A stretch of 22,891 bases of DNA from positions 1 through 22,891 of the forward strand of contig CAXHJY010001121.1 in NCBI GenBank assembly GCA_964016885.1, written 5' to 3'. Shown in pieces: positions 2,501 to 16,149 of the stretch (position 1 is its first letter; every line of letters begins with the position of its first letter). The notes below the pieces were generated by a model. The model worked only from the letters and a program-made list of their open reading frames with translations. It did no database searches and was not told the DNA's origin. This DNA comes from Eledone cirrhosa. Taxonomy: Eukaryota. A program made the position numbers and the translations under genes.

Positions 2501-3209
2501 TCAGGTTATAAATTGGGTGTTGAGTTCTAGTCTATTATTGATTGGTGGTTGTGTTTTATCTATAATTAGTGCTTCCTTAATTCTAAGATTGTCGAGGTTT
2601 CTTTCCTTAGTTTCTATCCTAACTGTTATGGTTTTGTCGGTGTTTTTGCATTTAACTAGGTGTTTCTTAAATGAGGAAGCGTTAGTATTGAGATGTTCTT
2701 TTATTCTTATGTGGAGTGGTCTGGTGGTGCTACCTACGTAGAAGTTGTTGCATTTGTCACACTCTAGTCTGCATACGACGTAAGCCTGGTGGCATAGGTC
2801 TGTGTCGTTGATGGGGCAATTGGCTAGTCCGCAGCAGTTGTCATGTCTGGTGGAGTGTCTTTTGGTTAGCTGTCCGCGTAGAGAAGGACGTGACTGGGCC
2901 AGTTGGATATCTAGTCCCTCTCGTCTGATGGCTCTGCGGATGGCTGTTGTTGTTTCTTTACTGAAGTGTGGGAGCTTCAGGAAGCAAGTGTTAGTGCCTC
3001 GGGTGTGGTGTCCTCTGTTCTTTCTGGCACGGTTTGTGGTGGATGTCGTGTATCCGTTCAGTTTGAGTACTTCCAGGAAATGTGTGGTGTGTGTGTCTCG
3101 GTCTCTAGCGTCGGTGCATTTGTTCCGGATACGTGCCAGTTCGTTCCTTATGTATCCGAACTTGGCACCGAGTGGGAGGGCCGATCTGAAATGCAGGGAC
3201 CTGTTCGTA
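2501..3209 (-). pseudogene. PLE ORF C-terminus: RT thumb, Cys linker and GIY-YIG endonuclease
   Basis: NRSLHFRSALP...LKLNGY (thumb), CCGLANCPINDTDLC linker, YVVCRLECDKCNNFYVGSTTRPLHIRIKEH (GIY-YIG with conserved Arg), LRIKEALII...PPIN. Frame is open to the stop. The first ~37 aa of the tracked ORF come from the inverted copy. Confidence 0.88.
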
Positions 3210-3325
3210 CATTTCAGATCGGCCCTCCCACTCGGTGCCAAGTTCGGATACATAAGGAATGAACTGGCACGTCTCCGGAACAAATGCACCGACGCTAGAG
3301 ACCGAGACACACACACCACACATTT
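3078..3325. repeat. Inverted repeat, 116-bp arms, 16-nt spacer
   Basis: 3078-3193 is the reverse complement of 3210-3325, with 2 mismatches seen. Confidence 0.97.
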
Positions 3326-3439
3326 GTATATATATATATATATAAATGAAGTAATTCCGTCGGAAAAGTCCAGGAAAAAAGAGTGCTCTATGTAGGTAAC
3401 AGAGCTTAATAGTTATGTAATAAACAACATAAGGCAATT

Positions 3440-3501
3440 ATTCCATTTACCAGTGGTTTCTTAAAAGCAAAAAAATTTGCTTTCAATCATCAGAATGAAA
3501 A
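3440..3501 (-). ncRNA. Type I hammerhead ribozyme, family H1 copy 1 (GUA site)
   Basis: Minus strand reads TTTCATT-CTGATGA-TTGAAAGCAAA TTTT TTTGCTTTTAA-GAA-ACC ACT GGT-A-AATGGAA. Core is intact, all three stems form, stem III is minimal. Confidence 0.85.
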
Positions 3502-3599
3502 AATCCTGGTTTGTTTATGGAATTTGGATTTTAAAAACAAAAATGCAATCTATATGAAAGTGAGGCTGGAGAAAGAAGAAGAAAAGGAAAAATAAAATA

Positions 3600-4545
3600 A
3601 AAACACACATGCAAACACACACACACACACACAAAAGCATACATACACACACACACACATATATATATATATATATATAAATATATATATATATACATAA
3701 ACTCATACATACACACACACACATATACACATATATATGTGTATATAAATACACACATACACATACATATACACATACATACGCACATAAATATCAACAC
3801 ATCCATACATACACATACATATATACAACCACACACACATATATATATATAGAAATAGAAATATATATATATATTTATATGCATACACATACACATACAT
3901 AGCCATACACACATACATATACATACATACATACATACATACATACATGCACACAATCATACCTATATACACACGTACATACATATACATACATAATGCA
4001 TACATATGCATGTACAAAGTTAGAAAAATATACACACACCTCTACATATTCACACACGCAAATAAATATAAGAAAAAATATATATAAAAAAATAAAATAA
4101 TAAAGACTATTATGCAGTTGACAGCGATACAAGCGACGAATAAATAAACAGACACGCGTGGTAAGCAATACACACAAATGCACGTACACATACGTACGAA
4201 AAAGTAAATACATACACACACTCTCACACATAAATATACATATACAAATACATAAACACATACATACGCATACACAAACACACACACATATACATATATA
4301 CACACACATATACATATACATAAATATATATATATATATATATATATATACGCACACATATACACACATATATATATATATACATACACACACACATACA
4401 TACATACATAGCTATACAATTATACACATACAAATACGTACATATCACAAACACGCACACACACACACACACATATATATATATATATATATATATATAT
4501 ATATATATATATATATATATATATATATGTGTGTGTGTGTGTGTG
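3600..4545. repeat. Compound (CA)/(TA)/(TACA) microsatellite with short unique islands
   Basis: Directly visible. Landmarks in 3600-3990 recur inverted at 5809-6130. Confidence 0.9.
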
Positions 4546-4641
4546 TAAAACTCAATCTTAGATAATTCATATGAACCTTATATAACTCCAAAATATACAT
4601 ATACATATATATAGTAATGTAATAAACAACATAAGGCAATT

Positions 4642-4704
4642 ATTCCATTCACCAGTGGTTTCTTAAAAGCAAAAAAATGTTGCCTTCAATCATCAGAATG
4701 AAAA
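4642..4704 (-). ncRNA. Hammerhead family H1 copy 2 (cleavage triplet GUG, probably inactive)
   Basis: Same motif as copy 1, but minus strand reads GAAACCACTGGTG-AATGG (C at 4650), plus stem II substitutions. Confidence 0.75.
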
Positions 4705-4977
4705 AAACCTGGTCTATCTATCTCTATATATATATATATATATATATACACATACACATACATACACATACATTTTGGTATGTGAAGTGTAAGGCAAAAA
4801 GAATATGTGGGGGGGGGGGGGGGAGACATAGGAAAAGGTGAAATATAAGGGGAGATAAGGGAGAAAAAGAATACAAGACTACAGAACGTGGATTCAGCAA
4901 ATAAAAAAACCGTAGTAGAAGTAAAGAGCAGAGAGGGAGTTGAAGGCGTTTGATTTATCATAGGAGTGTCAATCCAG

Positions 4978-13710: not shown

Positions 13711-13818
13711 AGGAGGACATGATATGAAGGCTAAAAAACACTTGTGGATAGTGCAGTTTTAAATCAACATAACTGCACTATCCACAAGTGTTTTTTAGCC
13801 TTCATATCATGTCCTCCT

Positions 13819-13888
13819 GTTTTATCTGATGAAAACACAAATATTATTGCATGATGATGTTTGTTTTTGAAATGCGCATAATAAAATA
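13819..13888 (+). ncRNA. Type I hammerhead ribozyme, family H3 (AUA site)
   Basis: GTTTTAT-CTGATGA (13826-13832). Long stem II ACAAATATTATT/GATGATGTTTGT with three G-U pairs. GAAA at 13869-13872, palindromic stem III ATGCGCAT, A17 at 13880, then ATAAAAT. Confidence 0.85.
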
Positions 13889-14014
13889 CATGGAACTCCT
13901 TTAACCATCTTTTGATCTTATATATTATGTATACTCCAGTCCTACAAACTGTAGAGTGCTTCTTATTCGATATCTGCATTGCTTTATTGTACTACAATAA
14001 AACTCACCTCCTAC

Positions 14015-14201
14015 ATATATATATATATATATATATATATATATATATATATAGAGAGAGAGAGAGAGATGTGTATATATATATATATATATATATATAT
14101 ATATATATATATATATATATATATAGATGTATATATATATATATATAGATGTATATATATATATATATAGATGTATATATATATATATATATATATATAT
14201 A
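14015..14201. repeat. (TA)n/(GA)n microsatellite with TAGATG variants
   Basis: Directly visible. Confidence 0.95.
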
Positions 14202-15308
14202 CAAGCCATGTATAAAGAAACAGTCAGCAAGGTTAGAATTAACAACGAATATAGTGAAGAGTTTAGTTTCAAAGTTGGTGTTCATCAGGGCTCTGTTCTT
14301 AGCCCCCTACTATTTATTATTGCCCTCCAGGCTATAACAGTGGAGTTCAAGACCGGTTGCCCATGGGAACTCCTATACGCAGATGATCTAACGCTCATAG
14401 CTGAATCAATGGCCGAGCTAGAGAAGAAATTCCAAACATGGAAGCACGGCCTAGAATCAAAAGGCCTTAAAATTAACCTGGCTAAGACTAAAGTTCTAGT
14501 TTGTAAGAAAGAAAATAAGGCGGCGGTCCCCTCCGGGAAGTGGCCATGCGCAGAGTGTAGGAAAGGCGTAGGTAGAAATTCCATTTTGTGTCCCAAATGC
14601 AAAGTTGGGGTGCATAAAAGATGTAGTGGGATCACAGGTAAGCTAACTAAGAACATAGATTTTACATGTGGCCGGTGTTCTGGGGCAATAAGTAGCAGCA
14701 AGTGCCCACAAAATACTAGCTCTTTCAACTGCGCAGAGGGTTCTATAGAAATAGTGGACAGCTTCCGTTACCTGGGTGACAAAATCAGCAGTGGGGGAGG
14801 GTGCTCTGAAATTACAGTAGCTAGAGTCAGAACTGGGTGGAAAAAGTTCAGAGAGCTTATACCACTATTAGCCGCTAAAGGGTTCTCCCTAAAAATGAAA
14901 GGCAGGCTGTACGATGCCTGCATACGAACAGCAATGTTGCATGGCAGTGAGACCTGGGCATTGTGTGCAGAGGATATACGCAGACTAGAGAGAAACGAAG
15001 CTTGCATGCTACGTGAACGACAAAGCATAAACGAACTAAGGAAAAAATTAGAAATAAGAGGGATCAGATGTTGTTTACTAGAGAGAAGGCTACGTTGGTA
15101 TGGTCACGTGATGCGCATGAAGGATGATAGCTGTATAACAAAGTGCAGGGCAATAAAGATAGACGGTAGCCACGGAATAGGCAGACCCAGAAAAACCTGG
15201 GACGAGCTGATAAACTCCGACCTCACACACTTACACCTCACCAAGACAATGTCACTGGACCGAGACCTTTGGCGGTACTCAGTAATAGAGAAGACCCGCC
15301 TTACCTAA
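14202..15308 (+). pseudogene. RTE reverse transcriptase C-terminal half with inserted PHD-type zinc finger
   Basis: [26 protein letters not shown]4HC3 finger (14547-14678), FRYLG, MLHGSETW, RRLRWYGHVMR, GRPRKTW. No stops. The N-terminal YIYI of the tracked ORF is microsatellite. Confidence 0.92.
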
Positions 15309-15659
15309 ATACAAAGTAAAACCTACTACAGTCAGTAGGCATCTCTAACAAAATACACCCCCGTCCCACCACCCCCACCACATCCACACCGCCCCCTTCT
15401 TTGTAAAGTTATGTTGGTGCCACACCATCCAGGCCGAAACAAATGAGATCGTGTAGGTGTCACGACAAAAAACATACAGTCCACGCTGTAATGTGGCCGT
15501 GTAGGCAACACGGTAAAAACCTCCCAGACCCACACTGTAAATGTGGTTCGTGTTAGGAAGGGCATCCAACTGTAGAAAACCTGCCAGACAGTCCTATGCG
15601 AGCAAGACAATCACTCTTGTCTCTTGTTAAACGTTGATGATGATGATGATGATGATGAT
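14202..15659 (+). mobile_element. 5'-truncated RTE-clade LINE with (GAT)n tail
   Basis: RT ORF to 15308, 3' UTR containing TTAGGAAGGGCATCCA, ending GTTAAACGTT(GAT)8. Confidence 0.9.
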
Positions 15660-15780
15660 ATATAGATGTATTTATATATATATATATATATATATATATA
15701 TATATATATATATATATATATATAGATGTATATATATATATATATATATGTATATATATATGTATATATATATATATATA
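15660..15780. repeat. (TA)n microsatellite with TAGATG variants
   Basis: Directly visible. Confidence 0.95.
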
Positions 15781-15814
15781 TTGGAAAATGTGTGTAATCC
15801 TTGGTACAGTTAGG

Positions 15815-16149
15815 TATATTAAGACAGGGGGGAAGAAAAAATGGCTTCACTTGTGCTTTCAACAATTTTATTTTCTTCACACAATCCAAAAAGAATTTTT
15901 TTCCGGATTAGAAAAAATTTTTTTTAAATAAATTTTTTTATATAAATTAAGTTGTTGGTTGTTGGTTAGGTCTTAATACGAAACAATACCTCCTACGTTA
16001 ACCAAGAACTCCTAAGACCTAACCAACAACCTACAACTTAATTTATAAAATAATTTTTTTTAAGAAAAATTATTTTTGGATTTTGTGAAGAAAATAAATT
16101 TGTTGAAAGCACAAGTGAAGCCATTTTTTCTTCCCCCCTGTCTTAATAT
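15815..16149. mobile_element. Long imperfect inverted repeat; possible TTAA-flanked MITE (15823-16142)
   Basis: Arms at about 15815-15975 and 16012-16149 with an indel-rich A/T middle. Ends read TTAA-GACAGGGGGG...CCCCCCTGTC-TTAA. Confidence 0.55.

What the first reader, a model, noticed from the sequence alone, without database searches (positions are those of the whole stretch)
3078..16149. Recurring fold-back caps: insertions end in an inverted self-copy that stops at (TA)n
Seen: 3078-3325 (116-bp arms), 5394-5808 (inversion with 56-bp overlap), 8010-8295 (about 286 bp), 13601-13928 (158-bp arms) and 15815-16149. In each case one arm continues into unique sequence and the other stops at microsatellite. 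Arms carry substitutions, which argues against read chimeras. Known: PLEs often have inverted 5' segments, and L1 makes inversions by twin priming. Inference: a shared mechanism in which both nicked ends of a self-complementary (TA)n target prime synthesis, mass-producing long palindromes and potential dsRNA.
Basis: partly seen in the sequence, partly recalled or inferred. Interest (0 to 1): 0.75.

Follow-up and report, generated by a model that had tools for sequence, protein, structure and literature searches.

The report
Two-ended Penelope retrotransposon insertion footprints
The five mirror-image repeats are real and are the already published footprint of Penelope-like jumping genes, which likely copy one RNA from both cut ends of the target DNA; TA repeats mark where they land but do not by themselves cause the mirror image.

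Summary
All five inverted repeats exist. They belong to Penelope-like elements (PLEs): a DKG-type coding PLE, a Hydra PLE, the 3' end of another Hydra PLE, and two non-coding families with PLE-type ends. The geometry (inverted 5'-truncated copy, 'tail' on one end only, (TA)n targets) is published (PMC8557442, PMC3846280). Genome sample: 83 such caps in 0.94 Mb, about 2.6x10^5 by extrapolation. Most inverted arms start at a fixed element terminus; one arm has the tail and the other lacks it (21 of 21 scorable copies in two families); arms share rare alleles (30/95 vs 5/264); either arm can carry extra sequence. Best reading: two cDNAs primed from both target ends at the two PLE start sites, then joined head to head (inferred). 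Corrections: these are not self-copies; the S2 arm runs on to 6298 through element-internal microsatellite; (TA)n is not sufficient (CR1 LINE 0/29 inverted though 18/29 sit at TA). Reads did not confirm the junctions; dsRNA untested. The scan found this before in this and other genomes. Known structure, modest mechanistic gain.

The parts
1918..3193 (-). PLE1 main arm: 5'-truncated coding PLE with C-terminal GIY-YIG, 3' UTR and 40-nt tail, 3' end at (TA)n
   Evidence: Pfam GIY-YIG E=7e-5; 2046 candidates, top 40 about 98% identical; DKG motif in longer copies; tail
3193..3325 (+). S1 inverted arm, 133 nt of PLE1 family sequence, 116 nt overlapping the main arm plus 17 nt further 5'; internal start, abuts (TA)9
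3345..5449 (-). PLE2 main arm: Hydra-clade PLE fragment, 3' UTR, internal microsatellites, two hammerhead-bearing segments (4611-4721, 3409-3605) and 64-nt tail ending at (TA)9
   Evidence: CxCx5C linker; HHR segment follows PLE2 in 16 of 29 loci; HHR motif at 3493
5450..6298 (+). S2 inverted arm: ORF piece 5450-5808 joined to an inverted copy of the element's 3' region 5809-6298 (HHR motif at 6237); ends 23-26 nt short of the tail-less terminus at a CR1 LINE
6293..7842 (+). 5'-truncated CR1/L2-type LINE; control family without inversions
   Evidence: RVT_1; APE+RT ORF in longer copies; 0 of 29 inverted
8009..8296 (-). S3 inverted arm, starts at the tail-bearing terminus (unit position 82), abuts (TA)n
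8295..9395 (+). S3 main arm: two 551-bp units of a non-coding tandem family ending at the tail-less terminus (unit 550); imperfect hammerhead-like core; Hydra-type hairpin motif after both termini; retrozyme-like
   Evidence: 3187 candidates
9564..13562 (-). PLE4: Hydra-clade PLE without inverted arm; pLTR part 9564-10168, internal microsatellite, ORF part 12231-13562; a separate repeat lies at 10244-10840
13601..13770 (-). S4 inverted arm, starts at the tail-less terminus, includes the 12-nt 'loop'
13771..14013 (+). S4 main arm: 3' end of another Hydra PLE family, type I hammerhead motif at 13826-13886, 85-nt tail 13929-14013
   Evidence: HHR; Hydra ORF upstream of a longer non-inverted copy in L291
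15782..15975 (-). S5 main arm with 33-nt tail; non-coding family of at least 765 bp, no coding parent or HHR found
   Evidence: 1534 candidates
15971..16150 (+). S5 inverted arm, starts at the fixed tail-less terminus shared by 8 of 29 other copies
19178..19360 (+).

Best explanation
These are insertions of Penelope-like retrotransposons and their non-coding derivatives, and each was likely made by two cDNAs copied from one template, one from each end of the cut target, then joined at their 5'-truncated ends. Steps: (1) the GIY-YIG nuclease cuts both strands of an AT-rich/(TA)n site (target preference seen here; double-strand cutting shown in vitro for another PLE, inferred here); (2) one end primes at the tail-bearing start site and the other at the tail-less start site 33-90 nt upstream (fixed, reciprocal ends shown; priming inferred); (3) each cDNA stops on its own, or both run off a fixed RNA 5' end in short families, which gives near-perfect hairpins (end clustering shown; its cause inferred); (4) the two cDNA ends are joined with 0-12 nt of microhomology or a short insert (junctions shown; repair route inferred). 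A minority of arms, including S1 and the ORF part of S2, begin inside the element and likely reflect internal priming, a template jump or later deletion. (TA)n is the landing site and may help the tail-less site pair, but is not what creates the inversion.
For: Reciprocal ends: S3 family 14 of 14 scorable copies and PLE1 7 of 7 pair one tailed with one tail-less arm, with the tail on either the longer or the shorter arm (p=1e-6; of 17 S3 and 12 PLE1 inverted copies, the rest start internally or are cut). In families anchored on the tail, the other arm ends at or near the tail-less site: S6 28 of 28, S4 10 of 12, S5 9 of 11. One template: S4 arms agree within copies at two polymorphic sites (23/23, 19/20), within-copy distance 0.0066 vs 0.0153 between; PLE1 rare alleles shared by the copy's own inverted arm 30/95 vs 5/264 in other copies' arms. 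Independent cDNA ends: extra sequence lies on the inverted arm in 8 and on the main arm in 9 of 17 PLE1/PLE2 junctions, up to kilobases, some with no overlap at all. Fixed 5' end: S6 inner ends fall at -4..+6 of one position in 22 of 28 inverted arms with different junction letters, while 5 of 52 copies extend far upstream into a Hydra pLTR. PLE-specific: PLE1 10/29, PLE4 10/29, PLE2 7/25 versus CR1 0/29 (p=8e-4). In vitro precedent: both strands cut and extended, two start sites bounding the tail, dimer predicted (PMC11167929).
Against: No biochemical or read-level test here. Allele sharing is weak in some long copies (L281 0/8, L008 1/6, L290 2/12; arm-to-own-main distance not below other copies for L290 and L008), and cannot separate one RNA molecule from two RNAs of one donor or from later gene conversion. 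S1, L015, L016, L290, L053 and L094 start internally; L072 has the tail on both arms. Family samples are the best-scoring 30 hits of 280-3187 candidates, and the S4 sample was biased to the window's own junction. Only 22 of 83 sampled caps could be assigned to a PLE-type family by DNA match; 60 were unassigned (15 with an HHR motif, 5 with a Hydra protein match, 39 with a tail-sized run-on), 1 matched RTE. The published interpretation of such junctions is self-priming (PMC3846280).
Confidence: 0.72

Rival explanations
1. Self-priming or snap-back: one cDNA folds back near its end and is extended on itself (or an antisense template self-primes), giving the inverted arm.
For: 41 of 83 sampled caps have a very small loop; S1 and S4 loops are 16 and 12 nt; proposed for PLE palindromic junctions in PMC3846280 (discussion passage). 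A fold-back of the tail-less cDNA followed by annealing to the tailed cDNA cannot be excluded as the joining step.
Against: Extra sequence occurs on either arm, often hundreds to thousands of nt, and some pairs do not overlap. A single fold-back gives no reason to stop exactly at the other start site. The S6 and S4 apex is not a native hairpin in non-inverted copies.
Confidence: 0.13
2. Two separate RNA molecules (dual priming), one per target end, or arms homogenised later by gene conversion.
For: Weak allele sharing in three of six long PLE1 pairs; dual priming is proposed for L1 (PMC2837659, passages); a dimeric protein could bind two RNAs.
Against: Single-copy variants are shared by both arms in S4 copies L069, L079, L088 and in PLE1 L286, L287; two RNAs would not by themselves force strict tail reciprocity.
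Confidence: 0.1
3. One reading: the self-complementary (TA)n target itself drives palindromes in whatever inserts there.
For: Strong TA adjacency; tail-less start sites end in TA-rich letters that could pair with either target strand.
Against: CR1 0/29 inverted with 18/29 5' ends at TA; RTE 1 of 70 undeduplicated rows, and that one a 71%-identity neighbour; PLE1 inverted arms at non-TA flanks (L015, L016); published inverted pLTR with a 9-bp TSD (PMC3846280).
Confidence: 0.03
4. Assembly or library chimeras, or DNA-transposon (MITE/foldback) elements.
For: The window is a whole 22.9-kb contig ending in a near-exact 3-kb duplication; no laid record bridges a junction.
Against: Same geometry on chromosome-scale contigs; outer ends at fixed family positions; private substitutions between arms; variable 5' truncation, tails and hammerheads are retroelement traits; junction letters differ from copy to copy.
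Confidence: 0.02

Closest known systems
EN+ Penelope-like element insertion unit: partial tandem, inverted 5'-truncated copy, 30-40-bp tail at one end (Craig et al. 2021, PMC8557442 Fig. 2 legend; Pen2a_Av, PMC3846280)
   Same: Head-to-head inverted copy at the 5' end, tail on one end only, heavy 5' truncation, microsatellite targets, hammerheads in the pLTR.
   Different: Tails of the Hydra-type families here are 64-90 nt; strict one-tailed/one-tail-less pairing and single-template allele sharing are quantified here and were not stated in the passages read; very high density (about 88 per Mb).
Hydra clade of C-terminal EN+ PLEs (PMC8557442, section 11)
   Same: DKT motif, CxCx5C linker, CxxC/CxH near the nuclease end, ORF under 3 kb, HHRs, insertion into (TA)n (PLE2, PLE4, parents of S4 and S6).
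   Different: RWK reads RWR in PLE4; long microsatellite tracts lie inside the 3' UTR/pLTR; no phylogeny against Repbase Hydra was run.
PAc (Poseidon, Anolis) in vitro TPRT (Frangieh et al. 2024, PMC11167929)
   Same: Two start sites bounding the tail; both strands cut and extended; AT-rich targets; start site need not match the target.
   Different: That paper reports no start-site difference between strands and does not model the inverted arm in the parts read; other clade.
L1 twin priming and dual priming (PMC2837659, passages)
   Same: Second nicked end primes a second cDNA, giving a 5' inversion.
   Different: L1's second priming is internal and leaves an internal deletion; here it is mostly at a fixed near-terminal site and gives long overlaps (palindromes).
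Animal non-LTR retrozymes, non-autonomous PLE derivatives (bioRxiv 10.64898/2026.07.22.740005; PMC7229834 listing only)
   Same: S3 is a non-coding tandem unit of 551 bp with PLE-type ends.
   Different: S3's hammerhead core is imperfect (CTGATGT; stems I and III not closed by my scan); circular RNA not tested.

Membership tests
EN+ Penelope-like elements | Single ORF with PLE RT and C-terminal GIY-YIG | tested here: met
   GIY-YIG in window PLE1 (E 7e-5) and weakly PLE4 (E 0.002); 759-aa open frame in L297 and DKG-type frames in L281/L282. S3 and S5: no coding parent found.
EN+ Penelope-like elements | Inverted 5'-truncated copy at the 5' end | tested here: met
   PLE1 10/29, PLE4 10/29, PLE2 7/25, S3 17/28, S6 28/52, S4 12/15
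EN+ Penelope-like elements | Optional tail at one end only | tested here: met
   Tails 40 (PLE1), 33 (S5), 64 (PLE2), 69 (PLE4), about 82 (S3, S6), 85-90 nt (S4); longer than the published 30-40 bp in the Hydra-type families
EN+ Penelope-like elements | Partial tandem/pLTR organisation | tested here: met
   PLE1 L281, L283, L284; PLE4 L297; S3 tandem units
EN+ Penelope-like elements | Hammerhead ribozyme in the pLTR | tested here: inconclusive
   Motif met for S4 and PLE2 and, as the U3-A8 variant of PMC4209133, for the S6 parent; imperfect in S3; not found for PLE1, PLE4, S5; cleavage not tested
EN+ Penelope-like elements | RT phylogeny with PLE/TERT | not tested
   No tree was built
Hydra clade | DKT motif, CxCx5C linker, CxxC and CxH near the nuclease end | tested here: met
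   PLE4 L297 frame; PLE2 linker
Hydra clade | RWK motif | tested here: inconclusive
   RWR in L297/L298
Hydra clade | Insertion into (TA)n | tested here: met
   termini abut (TA)n
L1-type twin priming | Second priming internal, inversion with internal deletion | tested here: not met
   Only a minority (L015, L016, L053); most arms start at a fixed terminus and overlap the main arm
L1-type twin priming | Target-site duplication bounding both arms | not testable with these tools
   Flanks are (TA)n; no empty allele available
Non-LTR retrozyme (S3) | Tandem units each with a complete type I HHR; circular RNA | tested here: inconclusive
   Tandem units met; HHR core imperfect; no RNA data
MITE / foldback DNA transposon | Terminal inverted repeats at both ends, fixed internal structure | tested here: not met
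   One-sided tails, variable 5' truncation and variable junctions

The most novel reading that the evidence does not exclude
PLE integration is an obligatorily two-ended reaction: a dimeric RT-nuclease primes one cDNA at the tail-bearing site and the other at the tail-less site of the same RNA, in Hydra elements guided by a small hairpin after each site, and in short families both run off one fixed RNA 5' end. This would explain the tail and the inverted pLTR together and account for some 10^5 palindromes covering a few percent of this genome, a large potential dsRNA source.
Probability: 0.5. Interest if true: 0.58.

Novelty: new member of a known kind. Interest (0 to 1): 0.3.

Why it matters
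The structure is a known PLE hallmark, so the window itself is ordinary. What remains of value is that its formation is called unresolved in the literature read (PMC8557442 section 15; PMC3846280 proposes self-priming), and this genome offers very many copies with which to test two-ended priming: strict tail reciprocity, shared rare alleles and a LINE control that separates target effect from element effect. Caps span about 4% of the sampled bases (overlaps not removed), which matters for repeat annotation (they can be mislabelled as MITEs) and possibly for dsRNA silencing.

Tried and rejected
Reads: Logan contigs of X1, X2, X5 and RAD-seq reads of X12 on 2900-3420, and contigs of X1, X3, X4, X5 on 5250-5808: family sequence is deeply covered but no record bridges the S1 or S2 junction and 5421-5477 has no cover; uninformative (high-copy unitigs, possibly other individuals). 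No RNA holder listed, so siRNA, editing and expression are untested; the four arm differences in S1 and S2 are single-arm changes, not an A-to-G pattern. Rfam scan found only microsatellite/hairpin miRNA noise below gathering scores and no hammerhead. I first read S4 as an inherited palindrome; rejected after allele concordance and variable junctions in unselected copies. I considered that native stem-loops set the apex; rejected for S4 and S6, whose non-inverted copies have no hairpin there. One search used the wrong strand for its reference and was redone. The first PLE4 count lacked the pLTR reference and was redone. The RTE control rests only on loci already held, with duplicate rows and many short fragments, so it is weak. 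No coding parent for S3 or S5 in held loci. Literature searches listed no paper joining PLE inverted pLTRs to twin priming; subscription papers (e.g. [quoted passage not shown]
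Full report
Setting. The window is the whole contig G000:C1148 of a 3.0-Gb genome. In a 1-Mb sample 14% of bases are simple repeat and 5% lie in (TA)5+ runs, so adjacency to TA needs controls.

Observation. All five inverted repeats are present. A sixth small cap lies at 19178-19360. The S2 arm continues to 6298: 5809-6298 is the reverse complement of 3432-3995, and that segment, with a hammerhead motif, follows PLE2 in 16 of 29 PLE2 loci, so the 'microsatellite' is part of the element. 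The continuing arms are repeat-family sequence, often just a short tail. The spacers are family sequence carried on the inverted arm.

Identity. S1 belongs to a young coding PLE with C-terminal GIY-YIG and DKG motif; its clade within the canonical PLEs was not resolved. S2 (PLE2) and the neighbour PLE4 show Hydra motifs (definitions from PMC8557442 section 11). S4 and S6 are 3' ends of other Hydra families: longer non-inverted copies lie downstream of Hydra ORFs on the same strand in L291 and L197. S3 is a 551-bp non-coding tandem family and S5 a non-coding family of at least 765 bp; no coding parent was found, so their PLE link rests on end geometry and, for S3, on a hairpin motif after both termini. 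That motif came from earlier scan notes; a pattern that I loosened after seeing the sequences matched 6 of 7 Hydra-type start sites, 0 of 3 PLE1/S5 sites, and 1.3% of random stretches.

Prevalence. In 94 of 100 evenly spaced 10-kb stretches (6 satellite-heavy ones left out) there were 184 inverted repeats with arms of 40 bp or more: 86 with one outer end at (TA)5, 9 with both, 89 with none; direct-repeat pairs gave 29, 8 and 178 of 215. In 53 of the 86 the partner arm runs on 25-125 nt and then meets (TA)5, against 9% for random points; 12 of 86 held a strict hammerhead motif against 29 of 860 controls. After merging duplicates, 83 caps remain, 88 per Mb, about 2.6x10^5 if extrapolated; 22 were assigned to the PLE-type families of this window, 1 to RTE, 60 unassigned.

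Element or target? Copies were the top-scoring hits of each search. Inverted arms: PLE1 10 of 29 (two more seen), PLE4 10 of 29 directly adjacent plus 2 across its own microsatellite (L297 and L298 may be one duplicated insertion), PLE2 7 of 25 with a visible 5' end. CR1: 0 of 29, although 18 of 29 have (TA)n at the 5' junction (p=8e-4). So the inversion follows the element class, not the target.

Where the arms start. Each family has two 3' termini separated by a tail (33-90 nt). In the S3 family 16 of 27 other loci plus the window have an inverted arm; in all 14 scorable ones one arm is tailed and the other is not, the tail lying on the longer arm in 9 and the shorter in 5; one starts internally and two are cut. 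PLE1 gives 7 of 7. In tail-anchored sets the other arm ends at or near the tail-less site in 28 of 28 (S6), 10 of 12 (S4; one has two tails, one is cut by the locus edge) and 9 of 11 (S5). Tail-less sites end in TA-rich letters; tail-bearing sites of PLE1, S4, S5 and PLE2 match (TA)n by 0-2 nt. S1 is among the exceptions with an internal outer end.

Where the arms meet. In 17 PLE1 and PLE2 junctions the extra sequence is on the inverted arm in 8 and on the main arm in 9, from 17 nt to 2.6 kb, mostly with 0-5 nt overlap at the joint. In S6, inner ends cluster at -4..+6 of one position in 22 of 28 inverted arms and 21 of 52 main arms, with different letters at each joint. That position follows an initiator-like TTAGT/TCAGT inside loop II of a U3-A8 hammerhead (variant described in PMC4209133; initiator consensus recalled), which suggests run-off at a transcript 5' end (inference). 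This explains why 41 of 83 caps look like tight hairpins.

One template. S4 arms agree within copies at two polymorphic columns (23/23, 19/20); within-copy distance 0.0066 versus 0.0153, 0 of 5000 permutations (21 of 30 loci, sample biased to the window's junction). In six long PLE1 pairs, rare alleles of the main arm recur in the own inverted arm 30 of 95 times and in other copies' arms 5 of 264 times, but three pairs show little sharing. One RNA, two RNAs of one donor, and later conversion are not separated.

Comparison with print. PMC8557442 (passages, sections 11 and 15) describes the inverted 5'-truncated copy, the one-sided tail and (TA)n insertion of Hydra elements, and calls the mechanism open. 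PMC3846280 (passages) shows the same unit with a 9-bp TSD and proposes self-priming. PMC11167929 (parts 1-2 of 4: abstract, main text, start of methods) shows both strands cut and extended and two start sites bounding the tail. PMC2837659 (passages) defines L1 twin and dual priming. PMC4209133 (passages) reports PLE hammerheads, including pairs 100-700 bp apart on opposite strands. bioRxiv 10.64898/2026.07.22.740005 (part 1 of 5 and passages) ties retrozymes to PLEs. Supplements were not read. Earlier scan notes reached the same reading in this and other genomes; my reading was set before I saw them, and they are not counted as support.

Verdict. Real, genome-wide and PLE-specific; the structure is known; two-ended priming at the two start sites is the best-supported mechanism but is inferred; (TA)n is the target, not the cause; the dsRNA claim is untested. 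Interest 0.3.

Noticed in passing
window 16146-22891: (TA)n-derived array with a near-exact duplication of about 3.05 kb (11 mismatches, 224 gap columns over 3187) that includes the S6 element twice (172/172 identical); may be a real tandem duplication or an assembly feature of this small contig.
   Followed up: partly
window 1495-1540: GC-rich hairpin followed by CTAG just before (TA)42, resembling a Helitron 3' end (recalled pattern); no match in the 1-Mb sample.
   Followed up: partly
window 10244-10840: Separate 597-bp repeat with fixed ends (25 hits in 1 Mb) inserted in the microsatellite of PLE4's 3' region; class unknown.
   Followed up: partly
window 10842-12240, 3600-4600: Long 'microsatellites' that are internal parts of Hydra PLE 3' regions and are carried with the element, so PLEs may spread microsatellite arrays in this genome.
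   Followed up: partly
window 14202-15660: 5'-truncated RTE-type LINE with a PHD-like finger inside the RT region and a (GAT)n tail.
   Followed up: no
window 6293-7842 family: CR1-type LINE family that also prefers (TA)n: 18 of 29 copies have TA at the 5' junction.
   Followed up: partly
L049/L051 (G000:C1:65553078-65555345): S3-family insertion with multi-unit arrays on both arms, suggesting a multimeric or circular template.
   Followed up: no
L064, L080: S4-family caps nested at the centre of older palindromes, one of them an S6 cap.
   Followed up: no
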